DNA of 60,599 nucleotides from a virus (lineage: Duplodnaviria; Caudoviricetes): positions 1 to 60,599 of the IMG/VR virus record IMGVR_UViG_3300048856_000135; one strand, given 5' to 3'. Below are positions 898 through 40,573 of this stretch, one piece after another. The notes under the pieces were generated by a model. That model worked only from the letters and a program-made list of their open reading frames with translations, ran no database searches and was not told the origin of the DNA. A program made the position numbers and the translations under genes. Numbering within the stretch: position 1 is the first letter of the stretch; each line of letters starts with the position of its first letter.

Positions 898-982
898 TAT
901 GTTGTATTTGAGTTCGTCAATTCGTGTAAACCGGGGAGTATCACACTCCCCGGGCTTACTATTTATAAAGGTTGGGCTCTAC

Positions 983-1348
983 TTACTGCAGGATCAAGCC
1001 GTGCTTCTCGGCAACCTGCCCGACTTCCTTCAAGAAATCAGACACATGATCAAGCTTAGTCCTGGACACAGAAACATTCAATGCTAAGCTAATCGCAGCC
1101 GCTTCAGCAGAATACTTTTCAGCGGGTTCGCGCAAAACACCATCTTCTAAGCCCTGCTCGTACAACTCAAAAAAATTGTAATTCAGAACGTTTGAAATTG
1201 TCTTCAACATTTCTGCACTGATGTCTCGGCGCTTGAAAATTGAATAAACATTTCGTTCACCAGTATTGATCTTGTCAGCAAAAACATTAAGCTTAAGTCC
1301 TGAATCCTGAAACTTTCTTTCAATTTCCTGTCCTATGTGCACATCCAT
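983..1348 (-). CDS. XRE/HTH prophage repressor (CI-like, no S24 peptidase domain)
   Basis: MDVHIGQEI...NVYSIFKRRDI...ISNVLNYNFFELY HTH pattern; divergent from cro-like gene; start reassigned to ATG 1348. Confidence 0.8.
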   Translation of the reverse strand: MDVHIGQEIERKFQDSGLKLNVFADKINTGERNVYSIFKRRDISAEMLKTISNVLNYNFFELYEQGLEDGVLREPAEKYSAEAAAISLALNVSVSRTKLDHVSDFLKEVGQVAEKHGLILQ

Positions 1349-1519
1349 TGCACAAAAATTGAAAATATTATTCATCTGAATATCAAACAATTGTGTAATA
1401 TAAATTCCTGTTTTGCGATTTTGTATTGCATATTTGAATTAATAGTTCTTCATTTGTGTATGATTTGTGCGGACAAAGAACGGACAATACAAACAATCAC
1501 ACAATCACATAAAAATGTT
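1349..1519. promoter_or_regulatory. Divergent lysis/lysogeny switch region
   Basis: AT-rich gap between divergent HTH genes; TTTG elements on both strands; short ACAAT(C/A)CA-like repeats. Confidence 0.65.
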
Positions 1520-1753
1520 ATGCTAAAAATCAGCCCAACAGAACTTAAAACCTTAAGAGATCAGCTGCCTGAAGGAGGTTATAAAATAGTAGCATCAAAG
1601 CTTCCTAGAGTATCTGCAGAGACTGTACGGAAGGTATTGACCGATCCAAAGCGATACAACAGCGCAGTAATTGACGCTACAATTGAGGCAATCAGAGAAC
1701 AACGCGAAAAGCTTGAGGCACAACTTACAGCGATCAAGGAACTGGCGTCATGA
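1520..1753 (+). CDS. Cro-like small DNA-binding protein
   Basis: First gene of the early operon, HTH-like, ATGA overlap with next gene; start reassigned to 1520. Confidence 0.6.
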   Translation: MLKISPTELKTLRDQLPEGGYKIVASKLPRVSAETVRKVLTDPKRYNSAVIDATIEAIREQREKLEAQLTAIKELAS

Positions 1754-2322
1754 ACTTTGTAGACCGCAAGCAAACGCTTCCTCCCGGCTTGATGGATAAC
1801 TCGGTTGAGTTCTTCATTTACAAACACGAAATCTGGTGCCTTTACAAAGGGAATAAATATGCCTTTGAGGATTTCCCAGCCGAGATCATTGACATCGTAG
1901 ATGCAGATATGGCTGCAAATCCTAAAGCCATGAAAGCATTACATGATTGGGATATTACAGATCCAGACGAAAGAATGCGCCAGTACATCGCTTGCCGTTT
2001 TGGAGGGTTCGACAATACCCCAGATATATGTGACAACGGGATTATGCAGCCAGCGGAATATGTTGATTGTGGTCGTCGCGGAATCTGCGACTATGAAGGA
2101 AAGCTTTGCAGTTCTATCGTACTCCCTAATGGCACATTAACCAAGAAAGAAATAGAAGTGCTTCGCCAGATCGGCTTAGGATTATTGGATAAGGAGATCT
2201 GCGAGGTACTCAAAATTTCCCAGGACACCCTTAGAAATCATAAAGACAGCCTCTGCAACAAGGCTGATACCCAACGAAAGGCGGGGCTTTCAATACTCGC
2301 ATACAAATACAAACTGATTTAA
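1750..2322 (+). CDS. Transcriptional regulator with C-terminal LuxR-type HTH and a Cys cluster
   Basis: LTKKEIEVLRQIGLGLLDKEICEVLKISQDTLRNH; CGRRGICDYEGKLC. Confidence 0.8.
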   Translation: MNFVDRKQTLPPGLMDNSVEFFIYKHEIWCLYKGNKYAFEDFPAEIIDIVDADMAANPKAMKALHDWDITDPDERMRQYIACRFGGFDNTPDICDNGIMQPAEYVDCGRRGICDYEGKLCSSIVLPNGTLTKKEIEVLRQIGLGLLDKEICEVLKISQDTLRNHKDSLCNKADTQRKAGLSILAYKYKLI

Positions 2323-2407
2323 AGAGAGGCATTCCCCCCTTTCGGGATTCGTATGCCCATACATGAGAAAAAGTGTGAATTAACAGTGTAAATAATTATA
2401 AACCAAA

Positions 2408-2608
2408 ATGGAAAATCTTCAAGCAACAACTAACAACAACACCACGGCTATGGCCTCTGGCGCAGTACAACTAGCAGAAATGTTCAAAAGGGGCTACTCA
2501 ATAGGCAAAATGGCAAAGGAGTTTTTAAGCGATGAAAGCGCCAAGGCCCGCATGCACCGAATCCTTCAAAAAGCAATTCGAGAATACCCCTGCCTGTTCA
2601 AAAACTAA
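2408..2608 (+). CDS. Small protein homologous to the C-terminal domain of the replication protein (4280-5668)
   Basis: 24/45 ungapped identities by hand alignment; A-rich start context. Confidence 0.8.
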   Translation: MENLQATTNNNTTAMASGAVQLAEMFKRGYSIGKMAKEFLSDESAKARMHRILQKAIREYPCLFKN

Positions 2609-2682
2609 TCGACTTGTGACGATAACGCAAACGGGTGCTTTCTCCCGACTCAACTGAAGCGAGTTCTTTCTAATCACCAATT

Positions 2683-2712
2683 ACCCCTGCGGGGTTTCCG
2701 CAGGGGTTTATT
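2683..2712 (+). terminator. Hairpin, probable intrinsic terminator
   Basis: ACCCCTGCGG-ggttt-CCGCAGGGGT followed by TTATT. Confidence 0.55.
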
Positions 2713-2786
2713 AACCCAAGGTCAGACAATGGCTTGCACCCCATTCTTCTGTCAGAAAAAGGATTAAAAATCAACAATACAAATAT

Positions 2787-3212
2787 ATGATTATCGCAGA
2801 ACTAGTATCCCAAAATGAGAATGTCCTATTGATGAGATTCTCCAACCCGAACCAAGACTTCGGTAGAAACGAATTTTTCCCGGTAGCCAATCCGGAGGAA
2901 GCCAAACGAAAGATGTACTTCCAGAACCGCAAATATGTGGTAACAACCTTAGCCGCCTGGCTAAAACAACGCAGGCACACCCTGAACTACAGAACTGCAC
3001 ACCCAGTGGATCAGAGTACCCTCACCAGAATAGAAAATACGATATCCTGGATGTACGACATTGAAAAGCGAAGCTTCACGCATATCTGTAACACGATCAG
3101 GAATAAGAGAATGGATTTGGAAAGCATTGCACCGAGCGAGAAAAGCCGGTTCTACAGCTACTACATAAAGACGATTATACCAATACTCGACTTCTGTTCG
3201 AAGTACGAGTAG
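2787..3212 (+). CDS. Hypothetical phage protein
   Basis: 141-aa ORF in early operon with A-rich upstream. Confidence 0.65.
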   Translation: MIIAELVSQNENVLLMRFSNPNQDFGRNEFFPVANPEEAKRKMYFQNRKYVVTTLAAWLKQRRHTLNYRTAHPVDQSTLTRIENTISWMYDIEKRSFTHICNTIRNKRMDLESIAPSEKSRFYSYYIKTIIPILDFCSKYE

Positions 3213-3351
3213 AAAGAACCTCAACGGACGCAGTTTATTGAAAGGTTGGCTATTCCGGTGCCGTTGCCGGGATCTTAAAAGGTTTCTTCATCCCTTAATT
3301 GAAGTTCACCACCGGTCAGCCTGCACGCTGACCGGTTTAAAACTTACTCTA

Positions 3352-3543
3352 ATGAAAGTTAATCGACTCAACCCCCACCCTGCAGACCTCACCGCTAAGG
3401 TTGCATTTGGTACCAGGCTCATTGTTCTGCTGGCTGCCGCGATCGCTCTTCAACTGATTATCGCAAAAGTTGGAGAAACGGTACACGACTGCCATTTAAA
3501 GCAACAAAAACAACGCCAAGGCCAAATCAGCAAGCAGGATTAA
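3352..3543 (+). CDS. Small membrane protein
   Basis: Hydrophobic stretch LIVLLAAAIALQLIIA; start reassigned to ATG 3352. Confidence 0.5.
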   Translation: MKVNRLNPHPADLTAKVAFGTRLIVLLAAAIALQLIIAKVGETVHDCHLKQQKQRQGQISKQD

Positions 3544-3560
3544 CAAATAATTAACCAGCC

Positions 3561-4277
3561 ATGTCTGACCGTTTAAACCTTGAGAAATCAATTCTAGGAG
3601 CCATTATTCACTGTAATGGATACCCGCAAGTACTACACATCCTGTCTGCCAGCAACTTCAGCTCGCATCCAACAGCTGAAAACAGGGGTTTATACAGCGT
3701 AATTGCAGGGTTATACCCCGACCGCCCGATTGACTTCATTACCGTCTATTACGAGATTAAGTCAAAATATCCCCATGATGTGGCGCTAATGTCTACACTA
3801 CACAATGTGGGGCACGAAGTAAGCTCATCAGTCAACATCGTGAACTGGGCATTCATCCTGTTGCAAATAGATATCACCGGCAAGTTCCACAGGCAGCTGG
3901 CTGAGTGGCATGCAGAGCGTAAAGCAAACCATGATCACGTAGAAACCGGTGCCCTGCTTGAGATCATCGAAAACGTAACTGCAGGCGTCGACATCTTCTA
4001 CATCATCGACCAAGCCATCCTCTACTTCCAGGAGGAGAACATGCAAACGGAGCTCAAAGCCTGCATCGAGTTTTACCTGGCATTATCAAAAAAAGTAAGC
4101 AACATCAAGAAAATGAAATCAATAGATACCGCCCTCAGCTACGTGTTCCGTATCACTGACGCTACACCCGATATCGTGCAGATCAGCCAGACCCTTGCCA
4201 CCGCCATCGCTACCATGATCATCAGTAAAGAGATCAAGCCAGAATACATACAAGCCGCTAACCTCATCAATAAATAA
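3561..4277 (+). CDS. Protein with DnaB-helicase N-terminal-like domain
   Basis: LEKSILGAII...LSASNF...LYSVIAGLY...PIDFITV; no C-terminal ATPase. Confidence 0.65.
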   Translation: MSDRLNLEKSILGAIIHCNGYPQVLHILSASNFSSHPTAENRGLYSVIAGLYPDRPIDFITVYYEIKSKYPHDVALMSTLHNVGHEVSSSVNIVNWAFILLQIDITGKFHRQLAEWHAERKANHDHVETGALLEIIENVTAGVDIFYIIDQAILYFQEENMQTELKACIEFYLALSKKVSNIKKMKSIDTALSYVFRITDATPDIVQISQTLATAIATMIISKEIKPEYIQAANLINK

Positions 4278-4279
4278 CC

Positions 4280-5668
4280 ATGGGATTTAATGATTTTTTA
4301 AGAAACAAAAGTTCAGAGGTAAGCACAGCCAGTACTTCTGATATGATTGAGGAAATCCGCAAAAGAGAAGGTCCAAGAAATATTTTCCCCTTAGACATAT
4401 TCCATCCACGTATCAAACCTTACATACAGGAAATGCACACCAAGCTCGACATTCCCCGTGCCTACATCGGCTTGTCAATGTTGATGTCTTATAGCACAGC
4501 AATCGGTACCGCATACGCGGTTTCACGTAATGGATCCGACCGGGTGAATCTTTCCCTGTGGGGTTGCATGAACGGAATTTCCTCATCAGGTAAAACCTTC
4601 GCACTGGACACATGCATGAAACCACTCAATGACATCCAGGATGAGTTTGATCAGGAATGGGCAGAAGCTGTTAACGGACGGACCGACGAACAGAGGCAAC
4701 GACTACAGATTAAAGCTTTGATTTACCGTGACGCCTACATTCCAACGCTAATCAGAAGCATCATGCCCTTTAACCCAAAAGGTGTGATAAAGGAAAGTGA
4801 CGAAATCCTGGAGTGGATTAATGGTCTTAATGCCCTGGGTAAAAAGGAAAGTACCGATGAACAATTCTGGCTAAGCTCATGGAACGGTCGTAAGTACTCA
4901 GCAGTTCGTTCCGCCAACCAGGTTACCGTTATTCCTCGCGTTTTCACGAATGTTATTGGAGGTATTCAACCGGACTTGCTTTACAAGCTATTCAAGAATG
5001 ATCGTGGTACCAGCGGTTTCATTTTCCGCCTACTGTTTGCTCAACCCGAAGAATTCAGAATCGCACGACCGGTTCACGGCTACGACATTCCGATTGAATA
5101 CAAAGAGATCCATAAGCAACACATCACGAAGCTATACAAGGGCCTCCCCGTTACAGATCCTAATGCAGAGCAGAAAGTTTGTCCACTGACAAAGGAAGCA
5201 ACAATGGTGATTGCACGCTGGGAAGACGATAAATCCGAAATGATCAACCTTATCCCCGACCTGAGAGAAAGAAACGTCCACTCCGGTATCATGGGTAAAA
5301 TGAAAGAATACTCCTACCGTTTCGCTGGAATTCTTGCAGTTACAGATTACGCCTATGACCTGGCTAACACAGACGATTATTTCAGGAAATCTATTCCGGT
5401 GACAGAAGACATCATGAAAAGGGCCGTGAAAGCAGCTGACTACTTCTACAAATCAGCCGTTGCCATTTATGAAGCAGTAGACAACTCAGTAACCGCTCCA
5501 ATGGAAGTTCTGGAAATGGCCACCCACTTTAAGATGGGGACTTCAATAGCGAGAATGGCAGAAGTAATCCTGAAAGACAAGAAAGCGAAAGGGCAAATGC
5601 ACCGGAAGCTGCAGAAAGCAATTAAAGAGTATCCGAAGGTATTCGGAGCAATAATTCACAACCAATAA
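4280..5668 (+). CDS. DUF3987/YfjI-like replication protein (P-loop helicase-like) with C-terminal HTH-like domain
   Basis: FPLDIF, GISSSGKT, SDEILEWI, LSSWNG, IGGIQP, GFIFRLLF motifs. Confidence 0.8.
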   Translation: MGFNDFLRNKSSEVSTASTSDMIEEIRKREGPRNIFPLDIFHPRIKPYIQEMHTKLDIPRAYIGLSMLMSYSTAIGTAYAVSRNGSDRVNLSLWGCMNGISSSGKTFALDTCMKPLNDIQDEFDQEWAEAVNGRTDEQRQRLQIKALIYRDAYIPTLIRSIMPFNPKGVIKESDEILEWINGLNALGKKESTDEQFWLSSWNGRKYSAVRSANQVTVIPRVFTNVIGGIQPDLLYKLFKNDRGTSGFIFRLLFAQPEEFRIARPVHGYDIPIEYKEIHKQHITKLYKGLPVTDPNAEQKVCPLTKEATMVIARWEDDKSEMINLIPDLRERNVHSGIMGKMKEYSYRFAGILAVTDYAYDLANTDDYFRKSIPVTEDIMKRAVKAADYFYKSAVAIYEAVDNSVTAPMEVLEMATHFKMGTSIARMAEVILKDKKAKGQMHRKLQKAIKEYPKVFGAIIHNQ

Positions 5669-5679
5669 TTCAATACAGC

Positions 5680-5916
5680 ATGAGACAATTCTTATTAATG
5701 ACCAAGCGCGGTCCAAAACCCCCATCCTACGTGCACTCAAGCATTGAATCTGCACTTGCTGAAGCAACCCGGTTAAGCCTAACATATACTGAAGAGGTGC
5801 TCATTTTGGAGATCGTAGGTACTGTAAAGCAAGTAGAGGTACCTGTTACCCGATTGGAGACTAAAGTCACTCTAAAAGAAGGTATTTACAACGATAACGA
5901 TGATCTCCCTTTTTAA
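5680..5916 (+). CDS. Small phage protein ending in an SSB-like DDLPF tail
   Basis: PSYVHSSIESALAEATRL; C-terminus NDNDDLPF. Confidence 0.7.
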   Translation: MRQFLLMTKRGPKPPSYVHSSIESALAEATRLSLTYTEEVLILEIVGTVKQVEVPVTRLETKVTLKEGIYNDNDDLPF

Positions 5917-5948
5917 TCTTTTACCTCCTAAAAACGCTAATCCAAATG

Positions 5949-6234
5949 TGGAACGCTAAAAACAAGCTCAAAAACAGGATAATTACTTGTATATCAGTTA
6001 CATACACCGTTCCAAAATCGTTCCAAATCGTTCCAAATGTTGCGCACAGAGCATTTAAAGGCGGTTTTTGCGTTCCACCATTTGGAACGACAGCGTTCCA
6101 AATGGTGGAACGACAACCGCATTGATAATCAATAGGTTATCTGTCAAATGGAACGATTGTGGAACGGCGAAAACCCTTGTAAAGTGCTGATTTACTGTCC
6201 TTTGGAAGTTCAAGTATCAAAAAAAATCGTTCCA
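5949..6234. repeat. Iteron array, probable origin of prophage A
   Basis: 11 copies of CGTTCCA/TGGAACG in both orientations, including a perfect 19-bp inverted repeat (6071-6089 / 6094-6112); just downstream of replication genes. Confidence 0.75.
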
Positions 6235-6295
6235 CTCTGCAATTAGAGGCTGACCAATAACAAAGTAACACGCTCACAAACAAATCGGAAAGGAC

Positions 6296-6679
6296 ATGAA
6301 TCCAGCATTATACTCAAAATGGAGGTACCAGCATAATGGTCAATCATGCAGCATGAAGGTCGTAGGAATTTGGGGAAAGGGTTCGGGTGATCTGTACAGT
6401 ATATCGGCTTACGAACTGATGCAGGACAGCAAATTGGAAGTGGATCTGGTATCTGCGAGCAAGATGGCTGCGATGATCAAAGATGGAAGGCTGACGTACA
6501 TCGCTCCTGGTCCAGAGGTACCGGACAGTGACATTAACCGGCTGCTCGCCGGGCTTGAACCGGCTTTGGTTCGCTCCGAGCCGAACAATAGGCGATCAAT
6601 AGGCGGTCAAGAGGCGAAGAAGAAGCGGTCAGCATCCGAGGCTGTATCGACTCGAAACATAACAAGAATGGAATTTTAA
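6296..6679 (+). CDS. Hypothetical phage protein
   Basis: 127-aa ORF in operon orientation. Confidence 0.55.
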   Translation: MNPALYSKWRYQHNGQSCSMKVVGIWGKGSGDLYSISAYELMQDSKLEVDLVSASKMAAMIKDGRLTYIAPGPEVPDSDINRLLAGLEPALVRSEPNNRRSIGGQEAKKKRSASEAVSTRNITRMEF

Positions 6680-6699
6680 ACAATAGAAAAACTATAGAA

Positions 6700-7074
6700 A
6701 TGGAAAATCAGACGAAAACAAAAGCAAAAGACCTGATCATCATCGGGGCACAAGGATCAGGAAAAACAACGCTGGCTAACAAGCTTGCCTCAAAGCATCA
6801 CCGTTCACGGGTTATAGGGATTGATTTTGGTCGCCACAGCACCGAAACATGGAAACAGATAAAAGCTCAGCTGTCCATTCACCGCCAAGGCGTTGAGTTG
6901 ATAATTGTTGAAGGTGTTCGCTGTTGGCAAAATATCGAAGATTTAATCTTCCAGTTAGACACGCACTTCGAGGGTGATATGTCCCTGAGGCCCCGTCTGA
7001 TCTTCACTTCTTTAAGTAATCTGAACAACGCTCGGCTACTGCTCTCAGATAAATATGAAATAATCAGGCTGTAA
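6700..7074 (+). CDS. Small P-loop NTPase
   Basis: Walker A GAQGSGKTT, Walker B-like LIIVEG. Confidence 0.75.
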   Translation: MENQTKTKAKDLIIIGAQGSGKTTLANKLASKHHRSRVIGIDFGRHSTETWKQIKAQLSIHRQGVELIIVEGVRCWQNIEDLIFQLDTHFEGDMSLRPRLIFTSLSNLNNARLLLSDKYEIIRL

Positions 7075-11289: not shown

Positions 11290-11724
11290 ATGAATTATTA
11301 CGAGAACGATAACATTGGCAGCCTCAAGGCTGTTGAAATCATCAGGCATGATCTTCCGATCGCCTACGCCCCTATTTACCTACCTGTTGAATCCAGCTGG
11401 ACCAGCATCCCCATCAAGGAAGAAGCAGGTGAGCTGCTCTTGAAAACCGAGGGTTCAGACAATGGGCCCATTTACATTTACTCCGGATCTTTCTTCATCC
11501 ACAACATGCGCCATGAGGTGGATCAGGCGCTGCTCCCCTTCTGCGGTCGAGCAGTTGCGATTCTCCGGGTTACCGACATGAATGACCGTGTGTACATCCT
11601 CGGTACACCAGATGCACCGGTTACCCTGAACGTAGCTGCAGGTACTGGTAGAAAATACAGCAACGAAAACGGATCTGCCTTCAATTTTACGGTTGATCAA
11701 ACATCCCCTGCACCAGCTGCTTAG
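11290..11724 (+). CDS. Virion protein, tail-tube-like fold suspected
   Basis: Beta-rich; RVTDMNDRVYILGTPDAP resembles the FYQIGTVGMPA region of 14610-15167. Confidence 0.45.
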   Translation: MNYYENDNIGSLKAVEIIRHDLPIAYAPIYLPVESSWTSIPIKEEAGELLLKTEGSDNGPIYIYSGSFFIHNMRHEVDQALLPFCGRAVAILRVTDMNDRVYILGTPDAPVTLNVAAGTGRKYSNENGSAFNFTVDQTSPAPAA

Positions 11725-11726
11725 GC

Positions 11727-11762
11727 TGTCCTTTCGGCTCCCTTAATCAATGCGGAAGTTTG
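11727..11762 (+). promoter_or_regulatory. Putative late promoter TGTCCTTT-N24-TTTG, copy 1
   Basis: Same motif and spacing before four late operons. Confidence 0.75.
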
Positions 11763-11807
11763 TGATCACAAAGGCTAATAACCACGATCACAAACAATCC
11801 GTATTGC

Positions 11808-12914
11808 ATGAGCAAACCAATCTTCAATGTTGTAAAAAATGAAGCGGCCAATGAAGCCAGCATTTTCCTGTATGGGATTATCGGCGATTACTGGTACAGT
11901 GACAATCCCGTTACTGCTCGCGCACTGCAACGTCAACTCACCTACTTAAGCGATTACAAAAGAATCAATGTTCATCTGAACGGTCCTGGTGGCGATGTCC
12001 ACGAAGGCCTGCTCATCGTTAACACGATCCGTGCGGACAAAGGCGATCGCATTCACTTGTACAATGACGGTATCTGCGCAAGCATGATGGCTGTTATCCT
12101 TGCTTGTGTTCCCAAAGAACGCCGCCATGCTGCCAAAGCATCCTTAACCATGATCCACACGGCATCTACTTATGCCTGGGGAAATGCTGAAGATATGCGC
12201 GACACTGCCGATATGTTGGATAAACATGATGATGTGCTCGCGGGCATTATAGCCGATGGCTTAGGCATCACCATGGAGCAGGTTAAATCGAAATGGTTTG
12301 ACGGCAAGGATCACTGGCTTTCTGCCGCTGACGGCGAAGCTGAAGGCTTGTTTTCGGTTGAAGATTACGACATCTCAGACATTCCAGACAATGCAACCAA
12401 CCAGGCGCTGGATAAGATCGCGGCCTTCTACATCAAGCCTGTTGCCAACACCTCACAAAGTAAAATCACAAACACAGATACCATGGGATTATTATCCAAC
12501 AAATTTAAATCCATCTCTGCCCTGGCTAAAGTAGCAGCTGCAGATAGAACTGCTGCACATTTCGAAGCAGTTAAAGCCGAATTGGAAGCTGAAGGCCTTA
12601 CTGGCGTTACACTGGTTCCCGAAGACGAGCTTCAAGAGAAAGTTGATGCTGCCGAAAAGGTGCCGGCGCTTGAAACTCAGGTTACTGATCTTGGGACGCA
12701 GGTAAGCAATCTGACCACAGAGAAGGATTCTTTAACGCAAGAAGTAACTGCATTGAAAGCGACCGTTGCTGCTCAGGCCAAAGAACTTGGTAAGCCTGCA
12801 GAAGAGTTAAAAAAACCAGTCACAGACAAGATCGATACTGTAGGTGCCGAGACTGTAGTTGATGCGTTTGAAACATCTTTCGACCGTGAAGCTAGGCTTC
12901 GTTTTGCCAACTAA
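11808..12914 (+). CDS. ClpP-type head maturation protease with C-terminal coiled-coil scaffold
   Basis: VHLNGPGGDV, DGICASM, TMIHTAS, DHWLSA motifs; coiled-coil tail. Confidence 0.9.
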   Translation: MSKPIFNVVKNEAANEASIFLYGIIGDYWYSDNPVTARALQRQLTYLSDYKRINVHLNGPGGDVHEGLLIVNTIRADKGDRIHLYNDGICASMMAVILACVPKERRHAAKASLTMIHTASTYAWGNAEDMRDTADMLDKHDDVLAGIIADGLGITMEQVKSKWFDGKDHWLSAADGEAEGLFSVEDYDISDIPDNATNQALDKIAAFYIKPVANTSQSKITNTDTMGLLSNKFKSISALAKVAAADRTAAHFEAVKAELEAEGLTGVTLVPEDELQEKVDAAEKVPALETQVTDLGTQVSNLTTEKDSLTQEVTALKATVAAQAKELGKPAEELKKPVTDKIDTVGAETVVDAFETSFDREARLRFAN

Positions 12915-37805: not shown

Positions 37806-39011
37806 TTAGCTAACTAGCCGCATAAAGCCCGCATTACACATAAATGAATCGTTCATAATATCCATACCGGTCCGCTTGTCCTGCTCGTTGACGTGAACAT
37901 AAATCATTGTGGTGGTAATTTTCGAGTGCCCCATGATCTTCTGCAACGCCACCACATCTTTAGTTTGCCGGTAGTAGTGCGTGCCGAAAGTGTGCCGCGC
38001 AACGTGGAAGGTCAGCTTCTTTCTAATGTTCACTCCGTCCATAGCGGCAATGTCTTTCAGCGACCGGTTCATTTCTTGCTCCGTAGGGAGATTAAAGAAC
38101 TTACCAGTTTTCCGCTCGATTAAGTTCTGAGCGATCCTGGATAATGGTATCTGTACTTCCTTTTTGAAGCGCCTGTTCTTCCATGGAATAAAATGCATTT
38201 CATTATTTAGCTGCACCCAGCCCCATTCAGCACGATAGACGTCCGAAACGCGGATTGAGGTAAAACAGCTAAACAGGAAAGCTCTAAGCGTTTGCTGTCT
38301 AAGATCATCCAGGCGGTTCGACAGATATAATCCTGTAAGCCGGTTTATTTCGTCCTCTTCCAGATAGATCAGTGATGGAGCCGGAGGAGTATTAACATAA
38401 TTTTCAAAATCTTTATTCAAGCTGATACCTTCCTCCATCGCTAGATGCAGATATGTTTTGATGTCTTTAATCCTGCCCCAGATAGTCGCATCATCATTCT
38501 TATGCCTTGTGCTTAGATGTACCTTAAAACGCTGCAGCAATTTCCTATCAGTAGCGTAAAACGGAATTGAAGTTTTGAATTTCTTGAGCCGGTTCAAAGT
38601 GCCAATATTGTTCAGTCGGGTTCTATTGGAAATTTCCTTGTATTTGAATCGATCTGCAATCTTATGCTCCATGTAGGCAAGAAAATCCTTTCGCAAGTCA
38701 ATGTTCCGGAGTTCATCAATAAATAAGTCCATGGACAAAACCTTATCCTGGATGCGGTAGACCTTGAAAATCTCATTTACTTTCTGCAGCTCATTGGCGA
38801 TGATCAACTGATAGTCATTGAAATCAGCATCGCGCTTGCTGCGCGGCTTCATGGTGCCAGCCTTGTTATCAACAAGGTGTGCTGGCCACGACAGATTCAA
38901 AGGGATTGGTTTGCTTTCCCGATTGATGATCACTAGCAAATAAAGGGAAGCATTCCCGTTTTTCTGGACCCGGTTAGAATTGCATTTAAGTTTTACGGAA
39001 TAGCTTACCAT
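37806..39011 (-). CDS. int: Tyrosine integrase of prophage A
   Basis: Arm-binding N-terminus; FSCFTSIRVSD, FHVARHTF, MGHSKITTTMIY. Confidence 0.95.
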   Translation of the reverse strand: MVSYSVKLKCNSNRVQKNGNASLYLLVIINRESKPIPLNLSWPAHLVDNKAGTMKPRSKRDADFNDYQLIIANELQKVNEIFKVYRIQDKVLSMDLFIDELRNIDLRKDFLAYMEHKIADRFKYKEISNRTRLNNIGTLNRLKKFKTSIPFYATDRKLLQRFKVHLSTRHKNDDATIWGRIKDIKTYLHLAMEEGISLNKDFENYVNTPPAPSLIYLEEDEINRLTGLYLSNRLDDLRQQTLRAFLFSCFTSIRVSDVYRAEWGWVQLNNEMHFIPWKNRRFKKEVQIPLSRIAQNLIERKTGKFFNLPTEQEMNRSLKDIAAMDGVNIRKKLTFHVARHTFGTHYYRQTKDVVALQKIMGHSKITTTMIYVHVNEQDKRTGMDIMNDSFMCNAGFMRLVS

Positions 39012-39331: not shown

Positions 39332-40573
39332 ATGATCAATCCGAAGTTCCATTTACAAGCCCTAAAATCGGCTAACGAAGGCGACTATCCTATCCTGATG
39401 TTGTTCAGTGTAAATAAAGCCAGACTCCAGTATTATACTGGCATCCGAATGCCTAAAAAATACCATGCGAAAAATGGGAAGTATCCATTTTCAAATAAGT
39501 GGCTAGAAGCGCCAGGAGTTAAGATGAAACTTGATGCTTTACTTAGACACGCCTACTCTATTGAGTCGGATTTGATCAAAGAAGGTGTCACTCAAACGGT
39601 CGATATTTTCCGAGAGGAACTGGATAAAAGATTTAAAGGCAGACAAGCCGAGAAAGTGAAGTCGTCAACTCTGGAAGATCGTATTGCTGAATACCTTGAA
39701 TATGTAAAGAATAACTTGGCATACAATACCTTCAAGAATAATCAATCCGGCTTAAACCATTTCAGGACGTTTTTAAGCAAAAAAGCCACAACCCTAAAGG
39801 TTTCAGACGTGGATGAAAATCTAATTGAAGGCTTCAACGATTACCTGAAAGCAGGCAGATTAAATAACACCGTTGTAAAAGCAATGCAGGTACTCAGGAC
39901 CTTTTTGCAGTACTGCCTAAAGAAGAAATACATCGCATCTCTCCCGCTCTTAGAAACCGGCAGCCCCAACAACATAACGGTAATTCACTTGAGCCATGAA
40001 GAGGTATTACAAATGGCTAATACTGCTATGCCCAGCCCAACTTTAGAGCGTGTAAGAGACTTTTTTGTATTTGGGTGTTTTACTGGTATGCGGTACTCAG
40101 ACATTGCCGGGCTGAAGAAGAGCAACGTTTTTAAGGACCACATCAAGTTTTTTATCCAGAAAAGCGGTGCAACCCAGGCATTAACTGTGCCCTTCACGCC
40201 AATGAGTAAAATGATCATCGACAAATACAAAGACATACCTGGCGAATATGCATTGCCATCAATAAGCAACCAAAAGACAAACGACTACCTTAAAGAGGTT
40301 GCAGCCCTGGCAGGCATCAACTCAGTAGTTGAAATTGCTCATAAAACAGCGGCCGGCCGAATCGAAAAAATTGAAACAACGAAGGATCAGCTTATCAGTT
40401 GCCATACAAGCCGTAAAAGTTTCATCACTATAGCCATGACGCTTGGCATGCCTGAAAGCGTGATAGTATCAATAACGGGCCACACTAAAGGATCTAAAGC
40501 TTTCCACAAATACTATGATGTAGTCAACTCGACGAAGTTCGACCAGATGGCTAAAATTTTTAATACAAACTAA
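39332..40573 (+). CDS. int: Tyrosine integrase of element B
   Basis: FGCFTGMRYSD, SCHTSRKSF, ITGH...FHKY. Confidence 0.95.
   Translation: MINPKFHLQALKSANEGDYPILMLFSVNKARLQYYTGIRMPKKYHAKNGKYPFSNKWLEAPGVKMKLDALLRHAYSIESDLIKEGVTQTVDIFREELDKRFKGRQAEKVKSSTLEDRIAEYLEYVKNNLAYNTFKNNQSGLNHFRTFLSKKATTLKVSDVDENLIEGFNDYLKAGRLNNTVVKAMQVLRTFLQYCLKKKYIASLPLLETGSPNNITVIHLSHEEVLQMANTAMPSPTLERVRDFFVFGCFTGMRYSDIAGLKKSNVFKDHIKFFIQKSGATQALTVPFTPMSKMIIDKYKDIPGEYALPSISNQKTNDYLKEVAALAGINSVVEIAHKTAAGRIEKIETTKDQLISCHTSRKSFITIAMTLGMPESVIVSITGHTKGSKAFHKYYDVVNSTKFDQMAKIFNTN

What the first reader, a model, noticed from the sequence alone, without database searches (positions are those of the whole stretch)
2408..2608. 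Stand-alone copy of the replication protein's C-terminal domain
Seen: VQLAEMFKRGYSIGKMAKEFLSDESAKARMHRILQKAIREYPCLF aligns without gaps, 24/45 identical, to the end of the DUF3987-like protein (LEMATHFKMGTSIARMAEVILKDKKAKGQMHRKLQKAIKEYPKVF). It sits earlier in the operon, before a terminator. Inference: a decoy origin-binding domain that competes for iterons, giving replication timing control or exclusion of related phages.
Basis: partly seen in the sequence, partly recalled or inferred. Interest (0 to 1): 0.7.

Follow-up and report, generated by a model that had tools for sequence, protein, structure and literature searches.

The report
Stand-alone copy of helicase HTH domain
A prophage of a soil bacterium carries a small, conserved gene that encodes only the helix-turn-helix end piece of its own replication helicase; this free piece probably sits on the phage's replication origin and tunes or blocks its firing, but that has not been tested.

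Summary
ORF 2408-2608 (66 aa) aligns without gaps, 24/45 identical, to the last residues of the DUF3987 helicase at 4280-5668 (BLASTP 28/60, E 5e-15). It is a real gene. Five distinct homologues of 65-66 aa keep its start, length and end. The same gene order recurs in another contig. dN/dS is about 0.13 over the domain.

The shared piece folds as a compact three-helix HTH (pLDDT 92), and its best structural matches are LuxR/sigma-region-4-type DNA-binding domains. The same domain ends 35 of 36 related helicases. Almost all of these lie next to an iteron array, and the iteron core differs between clades. The third helix, the likely recognition helix, is the best-kept part between the two window copies (10/14).

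A second, free copy is rare (4 of 36 loci) and takes two forms. One is this short upstream form. The other is a coiled-coil+HTH protein beside the origin.

The "origin-reader copy" reading is therefore well supported by inference. The "decoy/competitor" and "exclusion" readings are plausible but untested. The closest functional analogue is phage P4 Cnr acting on gpα, with no sequence relation. Verdict: a new variant of a known kind, of moderate interest.

The parts
2408..2608 (+). Small gene, 66 aa: variable N-terminal tail (residues 1-19) plus HTH domain (residues 20-64)
   Evidence: ORF. Homologues of 65-66 aa with the same MEN start: P0002 81%, P0007 55%, P0032, P0033. dN/dS is about 0.13 over the domain and about 1.1 over the tail, against L007. 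No Pfam or PHROG family.
2465..2599 (+). HTH domain of the small protein, the part shared with the helicase
   Evidence: 24/45 identical, no gaps. AF2 with a 9-row alignment: pLDDT 92.2, helices 2-12, 17-25, 31-44, 46-49 of the 51-aa segment. VIA-align best match DosR, Z 6.8, rmsd 1.8, 44 aligned; the rows below it are LuxR/NarL, sigma region 4, AsnC and DeoR HTH domains.
2629..2682 (+). Conserved non-coding block just after the stop codon (GGGTGCTTnCTCCC...TGAAG..AGTTCTT)
   Evidence: 92% identical to L007 over 62 nt, while the ORF itself is 69% identical. Also found in L006, L003 and L012, at other positions in their early regions. No Rfam match.
2683..2712 (+). Stable hairpin (10 bp, loop GGUUU) plus UUAUU; a likely terminator or RNA element separating the small gene from the replication genes
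   Evidence: -21.2 kcal/mol, z -4.5. Hairpins of different sequence stand at the same place in L007, L006 and L012 (-16.7 to -18.9 kcal/mol), and 10 of 18 predicted pairs show double changes. The U-tract is weak or absent in L007 and L012. Not listed by the consensus scan.
4280..5668 (+). DUF3987 (SF6, MCM-related) replicative helicase, 462 aa, with the C-terminal HTH
   Evidence: PF13148, E 1.4e-34. PHROG 2373 'DNA helicase', E 7e-30. AF2 pLDDT 73.6; the best Foldseek rows are MCM chains but none is significant (E >= 0.35). Literature: DUF3987 proteins are SF6 helicases with a C-terminal wHTH (PMC4889955 passage), and one member is a 5'-3' helicase (PMC11724360 passages).
5510..5644 (+). C-terminal HTH of the helicase (residues 411-455), paralogue of the small protein
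   Evidence: The profile built from the domain matches the C-terminus of 35 of 36 related helicases.
5949..6234 (.). Origin-like iteron array: 10 exact CGTTCCA sites arranged as a dyad (three direct, two 19-bp palindromes, two direct on the other strand, and two outer sites)
   Evidence: The same kind of array stands directly downstream of the helicase gene in nearly all related loci, with clade-specific cores.
1750..2322 (+). LuxR/GerE-type regulator gene directly upstream of the small gene (context: early rightward operon)
   Evidence: PF00196, E 1.3e-7. PHROG 10300.
2787..3212 (+). 141-aa gene directly downstream. In relatives that lack the small gene it follows the LuxR-type gene directly.
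   Evidence: 86% identical in L007, just after that contig's small ORF. In L003, L005, L009 and L012 the LuxR-type gene and the p141 homologue are adjacent, with no small ORF between them.

Best explanation
ORF 2408-2608 is a genuine gene. It arose by an old duplication of the 3' end (linker plus HTH) of the phage's DUF3987/SF6 helicase-initiator gene. It encodes a free 'reader head': a flexible 19-residue tail and a three-helix HTH whose probable recognition helix is almost unchanged (KxxMHRxLQKAIxE).

Inferred target: it most likely recognises the same TGGAACG/CGTTCCA iterons of the dyad-symmetric origin at 5949-6234 that the helicase's own C-terminal HTH reads.

Inferred action: it has no ATPase and no evident oligomerisation part, so it can only occupy sites, or pair with helicase HTHs on the palindromic iterons. 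The simplest outcome is that it restrains or delays helicase assembly at the origin, as a dominant-negative modulator.

Inferred timing: it is the third gene of the early rightward operon and lies upstream of a conserved hairpin that separates it from the replication genes. It would therefore be made before the helicase, or in excess of it. The same activity would act in trans on incoming relatives that use the same iterons.

Shown: paralogy, conservation, purifying selection, a predicted HTH fold, the position in the operon, and the iteron array.

Inferred only: DNA binding, the target, the sign of the effect, and the timing.
For: - Paralogy: 28/60 identical, E 5e-15; 24/45 without gaps.
- A real gene: five distinct 65-66-aa homologues with the same start and end. 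The same order, small ORF then p141 then DnaB-N-like gene, recurs in L007. Over the domain dN is 0.28 against a saturated dS of 2.1.
- HTH fold: pLDDT 92.2. The best structural rows are DNA-binding HTH domains (DosR Z 6.8; NarL, RhlR, sigma region 4, AsnC, DeoR). Profile positions 5-38 also match the classical HTH repeats of P0030.
- The helicase HTH as iteron reader: the domain ends 35 of 36 related helicases. In most loci the most repeated 6-7-mer lies just downstream of the helicase gene, and its core differs between clades (CGTTCCA, CGTTTCA, GTGCCA, GTAACA, GTCTCA, CGGAACA, ACGGACG, TCCGACA and others). L018/L020 and L023 differ in helix 3 only by N to S, and their iterons differ by CGGAACA against CGTAACA.
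- Kept specificity: helix 3 is 10/14 identical between the two window copies, against 7/20 for helices 1-2. The 'HR' signature is shared by the free copies and the CGTTCC-group helicases and differs in other clades.
- Domain tree: the small family is one clade (97/95) inside an 18-row group (90/94). That group holds the closest helicase HTHs, the coiled-coil forms and four other non-helicase proteins that carry the domain.
- Only one target cluster: with up to 1 mismatch there are 11 sites in 6001-6500 and none in 2001-3000.
- A stable hairpin follows the gene.
- Precedent that a copied initiator DNA-binding domain keeps its iteron specificity: ICP1 Odn and PLE RepA_N (PMC8263062 passages).
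Against: - There is no direct evidence that either copy binds DNA.
- A monomeric HTH would bind weakly against a hexameric helicase that carries six heads.
- The free copy is rare (4 of 36 loci), so it is dispensable for this replicon type.
- Helices 1-2 have diverged and the stem branch of the small family is long (0.71), so its specificity or partner may have changed.
- No simple residue-to-base code emerged: S, K, W and R all go with GTAAC, and H, Q, N and R all go with GGAAC. The covariation is also confounded by relatedness.
- C-terminal winged-helix domains of cellular MCM helicases are known mostly as regulatory or protein-binding modules (recalled, not from a call).
- The coiled-coil relatives beside the origin and the HTH+p78 fusion P0012 fit a helper role as well.
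- U-tracts after the homologous hairpins are weak or absent, and the consensus scan missed the hairpin, so termination is not established.
- There are no expression data for the ORF.
Confidence: 0.4

Rival explanations
1. Positive origin accessory. The free HTH binds the iterons and helps origin firing, by marking, bending or organising the origin or by recruiting other factors. It would work like a replisome organiser (lambda O type) or like papillomavirus E2 helping E1.
For: In L004, L005 and L009 the second copy is a 135-143-aa protein with a long helical N-terminal part. It is encoded right after the helicase/p78 genes and directly before the iterons. P0012 fuses the HTH to a homologue of p78 (E 6e-7). 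p78 is the small protein encoded between helicase and origin and ends in DDLPF, which resembles the acidic tip of bacterial SSB (that resemblance is recalled). These architectures suggest delivering something to the origin rather than blocking it.
Against: The 66-aa form has no second domain with which to recruit or bridge anything. Its tail evolves neutrally (dN/dS about 1.1). It is encoded far from the origin, in the earliest part of the operon. Most relatives (32 of 36) initiate without any free copy.
Confidence: 0.2
2. A transcription factor with its own operator. The HTH was copied from the helicase but has since acquired a different DNA target and regulates early or late phage genes or host genes.
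For: The fold class (LuxR / sigma region 4 type) is typical of transcription factors. The gene sits among early regulators: a cI-like HTH_3 gene, a Cro-position gene and the LuxR-type gene. Helices 1-2 have diverged and the stem branch is long.
Against: The recognition helix is the most conserved part between the two copies. No repeated operator-like motif related to the iterons lies near early promoters. There is no effector or dimerisation part.
Confidence: 0.15
3. A protein-level regulator. The domain is mainly a protein-interaction module, as in MCM winged-helix domains or P4 Cnr. The free copy would bind the helicase core, the helicase's own HTH or a host replisome protein, and so modulate helicase activity without competing for DNA.
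For: P4 Cnr controls copy number (PMC8628076 passage). It is reported to act through the origin-binding domain of gpα (recalled: Yeo et al. 2002, not seen here). C-terminal winged-helix domains of MCMs are regulatory (recalled).
Against: The iteron arrays and their clade-specific cores argue that something in these helicases reads DNA, and the HTH is the only recognisable DNA-reading module.
Confidence: 0.1
4. A non-functional remnant of a partial helicase duplication, or a spurious ORF.
For: The ORF is short, belongs to no curated family and is rare.
Against: Start, length and stop are conserved in five distinct sequences down to 55% identity. dN/dS is about 0.13 over the domain with saturated dS. 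Third-position identity to the helicase copy is only 31% while the protein similarity is retained. The fold is predicted with confidence.
Confidence: 0.03

Closest known systems
Phage P4 Cnr (ORF106) acting on the gpα primase-helicase
   Same: A small protein encoded upstream of the helicase-initiator gene in the same operon. It restrains replication of an iteron-type origin that the initiator reads through a C-terminal (winged) HTH domain. The cnr copy-number role comes from a PMC8628076 passage. The P4 gene order and iterons come from record X51522. That ORF106 is cnr, and that Cnr acts through the gpα origin-binding domain, are recalled.
   Different: There is no sequence relation. The small ORF against ORF106 gives no alignment at E <= 100. 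ORF106 against gpα gives E 14. The domain profile against the gpα C-terminus gives probability 0.7%. Here the small protein is a clear sequence paralogue (47% identical) of the initiator's domain, the helicase is SF6/DUF3987 rather than an SF3 primase-helicase, and the host is Bacteroidota.
ICP1 Odn (origin-directed nuclease) and PLE RepA
   Same: A second protein carries a copy of a replication initiator's iteron-binding domain (42% identical) and keeps its specificity for the origin iterons. The initiator's DNA-binding domain and the origin covary between elements (PMC8263062 passages).
   Different: Odn fuses the copy to a T5orf172 nuclease and is encoded by the enemy phage to cut the satellite's origin. 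Here the copy is a bare HTH with no catalytic domain, encoded by the same element as the initiator.
DBD-only or truncated initiator forms that repress replication (papillomavirus E2-TR/E8^E2; short pi protein of plasmid R6K); recalled, no call
   Same: A protein that keeps the origin/DNA-binding part but lacks the effector part and competes with, or poisons, the full-length form.
   Different: Those forms come from the same gene by internal starts or splicing. Here the copy is a separate, long-diverged gene at another place in the operon. The function here is untested.
C-terminal (winged) HTH of SF6/MCM-type helicases, including DUF3987
   Same: [quoted passage not shown] The characterised member AgaPH has a 'C-terminal small domain' (PMC11724360 passage).
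   Different: Neither paper's passages that I read mention a free-standing paralogue. The model here shows helices only, with no beta wing.
LuxR/GerE and sigma-70 region 4 HTH domains
   Same: They are the best structural matches (Z 5-6.8 over 44-48 of 51 residues) and share the layout: helix, short turn, 'S-x-x-x-hAxxh', turn, long basic helix.
   Different: No Pfam match to GerE or Sigma70_r4 for any of 9 members at E <= 10; HTH_38 at 0.092 in 1 of 9. A Z under 8 may reflect only a common arrangement (tool note).

Membership tests
DUF3987 (PF13148) SF6 helicase; applies to the large protein 4280-5668 | Pfam model match above the gathering score | tested here: met
   120.3 bits against a cut-off of 27, E 1.4e-34
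DUF3987 (PF13148) SF6 helicase; applies to the large protein 4280-5668 | Walker A and Walker B ATPase motifs | tested here: met
   GISSSGKT (residues 99-106) and the hydrophobic-DE motif ..SDEILEW.. read directly in the translation. These columns are invariant in the 10-row alignment: G99, S101, S102, G104, K105, E175.
DUF3987 (PF13148) SF6 helicase; applies to the large protein 4280-5668 | MCM-like AAA+ fold | tested here: inconclusive
   The top Foldseek rows are MCM chains, but E >= 0.35 and TM 0.2-0.3. No PDB relative by sequence.
C-terminal HTH domain of this helicase clade; applies to the small protein | Significant sequence similarity over the whole domain | tested here: met
   E 5e-15 pairwise. 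The profile scores the small ORF at 95 bits, E 8.5e-28. Caveat: the small ORF's own domain is one of the 9 rows the profile was built from, so only the pairwise figure is independent.
Helix-turn-helix DNA-binding domains (LuxR/GerE, sigma-70 region 4 type) | Tri-/tetra-helical HTH fold | tested here: met
   AF2 pLDDT 92.2 with four helices. Z 6.8 to 4.5 against DosR, NarL, RhlR, SigL region 4, FliA, GerE and others. Foldseek found nothing significant.
Helix-turn-helix DNA-binding domains (LuxR/GerE, sigma-70 region 4 type) | Match to the curated sequence family (PF00196, PF04545/PF08281) | tested here: not met
   0 of 9 members match at E <= 10, so it is not filed as a member of these Pfam families.
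Helix-turn-helix DNA-binding domains (LuxR/GerE, sigma-70 region 4 type) | Sequence-specific DNA binding | not testable with these tools
   Only indirect evidence: iteron arrays beside every helicase, with clade-specific cores
Winged-helix domain (as stated for DUF3987 C-termini in PMC4889955) | Beta-hairpin wing after the recognition helix | tested here: not met
   DSSP on the model shows helices only; the residues after helix 3 form a short helix 46-49
DBD-only negative regulators of replication (Cnr-like or E2-TR-like by function) | Shares the initiator's DNA-binding domain and lacks its effector (ATPase) part | tested here: met
   66 aa, of which residues 20-64 are the domain; there is no other domain
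DBD-only negative regulators of replication (Cnr-like or E2-TR-like by function) | Binds the same origin sites or the initiator, and lowers replication | not testable with these tools
   Needs EMSA and copy-number assays
P4 Cnr family (by sequence) | Sequence similarity to P4 ORF106 | tested here: not met
   No alignment at E <= 100
Odn-type origin-directed nuclease | Nuclease domain fused to the copied DNA-binding domain | tested here: not met
   The protein has only 66 residues and no Pfam domain
Intrinsic terminator (for 2683-2712) | GC-rich hairpin followed by a U-tract | tested here: inconclusive
   The hairpin is strong and conserved in structure. The tail is UUAUU here but weak or absent in L007 and L012. 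Not listed by the scan.

The most novel reading that the evidence does not exclude
The free HTH is an iteron-specific replication-immunity factor. By occupying, or poisoning helicase assembly on, TGGAACG-type origins, it would make the lysogen or the infected cell refractory to replication of related phages of the same 'iteron group'. The coiled-coil form would be a second solution to the same problem. This would drive the diversification of iteron cores and helicase reader heads seen across this phage clade, an origin-level arms race like PLE RepA against Odn but without a nuclease.
Probability: 0.12. Interest if true: 0.7.

Novelty: new variant of a known kind. Interest (0 to 1): 0.45.

Why it matters
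Replication control in phages of Bacteroidota is almost unstudied, and DUF3987/SF6 helicases have only recently been shown to be helicases (PMC11724360). This locus offers a compact, testable system. It has one helicase with a built-in reader head, a dyad-symmetric iteron origin, and a natural free copy of the reader head.

If the free head binds the iterons, it gives three things:
- a direct handle on how SF6 helicase-initiators recognise origins;
- a natural example of replication control, or exclusion, by a separately encoded DBD-only paralogue;
- a small specificity module, with clade-specific iterons, that could be used to build orthogonal replicons for Bacteroidota.

If it does not bind the iterons, the finding is just a small HTH regulator with an unusual ancestry.

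Tried and rejected
- Pfam, PHROGs: no family for the small protein, nor for 9 domain members at E <= 10 beyond chance-level rows. PHROG and Pfam scans of the coiled-coil and other forms gave only weak coiled-coil noise.
- Foldseek against PDB: nothing at E <= 0.001 for either model.
- PDB by sequence: nothing meaningful.
- ESM Atlas: no usable feature hit, and structure rows under the bar.
- Rfam on 900-7000: no match.
- Cultured-phage collection: no tblastn match for the small protein, and only two 23-25% matches for the helicase.
- More free copies were sought in IMG/VR with the single protein and with the 3-row alignment: none. In genome contigs: none. In metagenome contigs: only L007, plus a false positive, L008, which is a phosphoglucosamine-mutase-like gene sharing 'GKMAKEFL'. 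The coiled-coil form turned up only in the two IMG/VR records already known. The context of P0002 could not be obtained.
- Complex prediction of helicase residues 1-400 with the HTH domain: no verdict (score 0.00). This is no evidence either way.
- Sequencing runs: contigs of the one RNA library (X4) lie on 977-1328 and 3226-3480 and not on 2408-2608. Contigs of the related DNA runs X2, X3 and X5 did not cover the small ORF either. Absence of cover is not evidence.
- A strict Bacteroidota-type promoter pattern (TTTG..TAnnTTTG, recalled consensus) has no match anywhere in the window, which is uninformative. The sigma-70-type scan is at chance level (10 found, 10.1 expected).
- One-residue recognition code (the residue before the invariant Arg of helix 3 against the iteron core): rejected as too simple after the extra loci L036-L043.
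- Xis/excisionase reading: no HTH_17-type match, and the paralogy to the helicase argues against it.
- Relatives by kinship and earlier findings were not available.

Full report
CONTEXT. The window is an IMG/VR provirus record of 60.6 kb. Genes run almost entirely on the + strand from about 1.3 kb. A tyrosine integrase lies at 37806-39011 (-). Relatives of its replication helicase occur in prophages of Pedobacter and other Sphingobacteriaceae, and more distantly in Cytophagales genomes.

The left end is a lysogeny/early module:
- a cI-like HTH_3 gene at 983-1390 (-);
- a small Cro-position gene;
- a LuxR/GerE-type regulator at 1750-2322;
- the ORF in question at 2408-2608;
- a 141-aa gene at 2787-3212;
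- a DnaB-N-terminal-domain-like gene at 3561-4277;
- the DUF3987 helicase at 4280-5668;
- a 78-aa gene at 5680-5916;
- a non-coding iteron array at 5949-6234.

The 66-aa ORF is as quoted. The 45-residue strings align without gaps at 24/45. BLASTP gives 28/60, E 5e-15, and the alignment extends into the linker (..TTA.. against ..VTAP..). Only these two places in the record match. At the DNA level the two stretches are 57% identical, with third positions at 31%. This is an old duplication kept similar by selection on the protein.

IT IS A REAL GENE. A search of 5.8 billion clustered proteins found the window's own cluster and P0002 (65 aa, 81%). The profile search added P0007 (66 aa, 55%). The window's cluster holds two further variants. 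All five start MEN.., are 65-66 aa long and end ..LF(K/N)(N/H).

P0007's contig (L007) has the same order: small ORF, then the p141 homologue (86% identical), then the DnaB-N-like gene. Against L007, the domain (residues 20-66) has dN 0.28 and dS 2.1 (saturated), a ratio of about 0.13. The N-terminal tail has a ratio of about 1.1. The neighbouring p141 gene has 0.07 (Nei-Gojobori, one pair, few sites). In L003, L005, L009 and L012 the LuxR-type gene and p141 are adjacent. The small gene with its downstream block is therefore an insertion or accessory cassette at that point.

WHAT THE DOMAIN IS. AlphaFold2 on a 9-row alignment gives pLDDT 92.2 with helices 2-12, 17-25, 31-44 and 46-49 and no strands. 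Foldseek finds nothing significant. The exhaustive VIA-align search ranks DosR first (Z 6.8, rmsd 1.8, 44 aligned). Below it come NarL, RhlR, ChrA, GerE, sigma region 4 of several sigma factors, and AsnC/Lrp and DeoR HTH domains. The tool warns that a Z under 8 can be a common arrangement, so I take this as 'HTH fold, LuxR/sigma-4-like', not as membership. No member matches those Pfam families.

A profile search of 1.84 billion representatives found 30 proteins at E <= 0.001. By my reading of their sequences they sort as follows:
- 5 full-length DUF3987-type helicases;
- 10 N-terminally cut pieces of such helicases, one of them identical to the window's last 55 residues;
- 2 stand-alone 65-66-aa proteins;
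- 3 coiled-coil+domain proteins of 135-137 aa;
- 6 other small architectures, including P0012, where the domain precedes a p78-like part (E 6e-7);
- 4 repeat proteins matched only in pieces, one of which (P0030) is made of classical HTH repeats.

The literature already states that DUF3987 proteins are SF6 (MCM-related) helicases with a C-terminal winged HTH (PMC4889955, passages). It also states that a PriCT-DUF3987 protein is a 5'-3' helicase with a small C-terminal domain (PMC11724360, passages). The helicase copy is therefore known. In those passages and in searches I found no mention of a free paralogue.

IS THE HELICASE HTH THE ORIGIN READER? I collected 36 helicase loci: the window, L003-L006, L009-L031 and L036-L043. 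The domain profile hits the helicase C-terminus in 35 of them, with no hit in L031.

In most loci the most repeated 6-7-mer lies immediately downstream of the helicase gene, typically 8-14 copies within 300-1300 bp. The cores differ by clade:
- CGTTCCA: window, L003, L006, L012;
- CGTTCCG: L004, L009;
- CGTTTCA: L010;
- GTGCCA: L011;
- GTAACA types: L013, L016, L023, L026, L028, L036, L037, L040-L042;
- GTCTCA: L014;
- CGGAACA: L017-L020, L029;
- ACGGACG: L021;
- TCCGACA: L038, L039;
- others.

A few loci gave no clear array in this crude k-mer count (L005, L015, L025, L027, L043). By eye L005 has CGTTCC sites.

The closest informative pair is L018/L020 against L023. Their helix 3 differs only by Asn to Ser before the invariant Arg, and their iterons differ by CGGAACA against CGTAACA. 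A one-residue code did not survive the extra loci, and relatedness confounds all of this. The statement that the HTH reads the iterons is a reasoned inference, not a result.

The window's array is dyad-symmetric: three direct sites, two perfect 19-bp palindromes, two direct sites on the other strand, and outer sites. That layout is expected for head-to-head loading of two hexamers, which is again an inference.

DOES THE FREE COPY KEEP THE SPECIFICITY? Helix 3 is 10/14 identical between the two window copies, against 3/11 and 4/9 for helices 1 and 2. The ..MHR..L.KAI.. signature is shared by the free copies, the coiled-coil copies and the helicases of the CGTTCC group, and it differs in other clades.

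In a 57-column tree the small family is one clade (97/95). It lies on a long stem (0.71) inside an 18-row group (90/94, unresolved within). That group holds the closest helicase HTHs, all the coiled-coil copies and four other non-helicase proteins that carry the domain. The tree has too few columns to say more.

Sites matching CGTTCCA with up to one mismatch are at background outside the origin, with none in 2001-3000. If the specificity is kept, the origin is the only clustered target.

HOW COMMON IS A SECOND COPY? It occurs in 4 of 36 loci: the window (short form, upstream) and L004, L005 and L009 (135-143-aa form, helical N-terminal part plus HTH). In those three it is encoded after the helicase/p78 genes and ends a few bases before the first iteron. 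Whole-record searches of ten IMG/VR records confirm this: two matches in the records of L004 and L005 and one in each of the other eight. In L006 the record starts inside the p141 homologue, so the place where the window has its small ORF is not on record. None of the four has both forms. The free copy is thus a dispensable accessory restricted to the CGTTCC-iteron phages.

SURROUNDINGS OF THE GENE. A 54-nt non-coding block follows the stop. It is 92% identical in L007, more conserved than the ORF at 69%. It also occurs, at other places in the early region, in L003, L006 and L012. A stable hairpin follows it (-21.2 kcal/mol, z -4.5). Its counterparts have other sequences but similar stability, and 10 of 18 predicted pairs show double changes. 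The U-tract is UUAUU here and weak or absent elsewhere. 'Terminator' is therefore plausible but not proven, and the block may be an RNA or protein-binding element of its own.

No promoter could be assigned. An RNA-library run holds contigs identical to 977-1328 and 3226-3480 only, which says nothing about the small ORF.

MECHANISM. My best reading (confidence 0.4) has three parts:
- The protein is a free iteron-reader head that modulates origin firing.
- It most simply does so by occupying iterons, or by pairing with helicase heads on the palindromes without contributing an ATPase, so it acts as a dominant-negative.
- It is made early, upstream of the hairpin.

The helper reading (0.2) is kept alive by the coiled-coil forms at the origin and by the HTH-p78 fusion. 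A transcription-factor reading (0.15) and a protein-level regulator reading (0.1) cannot be excluded. A dead remnant is very unlikely (0.03). The complex prediction gave no verdict and is not used.

COMPARISON WITH WHAT IS KNOWN.
- Phage P4 Cnr with gpα works most like this: a small regulator encoded upstream of the helicase-initiator, controlling the copy number of an iteron origin (PMC8628076 passage; P4 record; mechanism recalled). There is no sequence relation, and in P4 the regulator is not a recognisable paralogue of the initiator domain.
- ICP1 Odn shows that a copied initiator DNA-binding domain keeps iteron specificity, but it carries a nuclease and belongs to the opponent.
- DBD-only repressors made from the same gene (papillomavirus E2 short forms, R6K pi) are recalled analogies.

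The new points are three: a separately encoded, long-maintained, sequence-paralogous reader head of an SF6 helicase; its two alternative architectures; and the modular use of this HTH in several small proteins.

VERDICT. The finding is a new variant of a known kind, and I score interest at 0.45.

Noticed in passing
window 2629-2712; L007:231-318; L006:698-790; L003:1559-1660; L012:8527-8625: A conserved non-coding block (GGGTGCTTnCTCCC..TGAAG..AGTTCTT) is followed by a stable hairpin whose sequence varies. It occurs once per phage in the CGTTCCA-iteron group, at different places in the early region. It has no Rfam family. It could be a terminator/antiterminator module, a small RNA or a protein-binding site.
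   Followed up: partly
window 5680-5916 (also L004:3414-3644, L006:3210-3443, L009:11389-11616): The 78-aa protein encoded between the helicase and the origin ends in ..NDDLPF. This resembles the acidic C-terminal tip of bacterial SSB (resemblance recalled), so the protein may recruit SSB-binding host replisome proteins. P0012 and P0035 fuse the HTH domain to a p78-like part (E 6e-7).
   Followed up: partly
window 5949-6234: The origin is dyad-symmetric. It has three direct CGTTCCA sites 10-11 bp apart, two perfect 19-bp palindromes (6071-6089, 6094-6112), two direct sites on the other strand, and outer sites at 5949 and 6228. This suggests head-to-head loading of two helicase hexamers.
   Followed up: partly
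L003-L006, L009-L031, L036-L043, just downstream of each helicase gene: Iteron cores differ between helicase clades, with at least a dozen different cores. L018/L020 (helix 3 ..KANRQ.., CGGAACA) and L023 (..KASRQ.., CGTAACA) differ by one helix-3 residue and one iteron base. This is a natural data set for the recognition code of this HTH.
   Followed up: partly
L004:3653-4063; L005:6067-6474; L009 about 11620-12035: Proteins of 135-143 aa with a long helical (coiled-coil-like) N-terminal part and the same HTH. They are encoded directly before the iterons and represent an alternative form of the second copy (also P0005, P0006, P0009).
   Followed up: partly
window 977-1328 and 3226-3480: A soil metatranscriptome run (X4) holds contigs identical to these two stretches only: the cI-like repressor gene, and the region upstream of the DnaB-N-like gene. 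These may be transcripts made in lysogens, but DNA carry-over is not excluded.
   Followed up: no
window 3352-3543 (also L003:2023-2175, L004:1153-1296, L005:3694-3936): A small ORF with one hydrophobic, membrane-helix-like stretch (judged by eye) is kept by position just upstream of the DnaB-N-like gene, although its sequence varies.
   Followed up: no
window 37806-39011 (-) and 39332-40573 (+): Two tyrosine-integrase genes lie back to back. The prophage probably ends near 39 kb, and a second integrative element or remnant follows it.
   Followed up: no
P0016, P0018, P0029: Repeat proteins of 266-321 aa have units of roughly 45-65 residues that end in a ..(K/R)xxPELF(A/G)H.. motif. They match the last 17 profile positions four to five times. 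This may be a distant repeated relative of the domain, or chance.
   Followed up: no
L027: The record title assigns this contig to a Bifidobacterium MAG. Its helicase HTH sits with L024, from a Bacteroidetes MAG, in the tree at 100/99 and shares its helix-3 segment with L024 and L025. This is probably a binning error.
   Followed up: no
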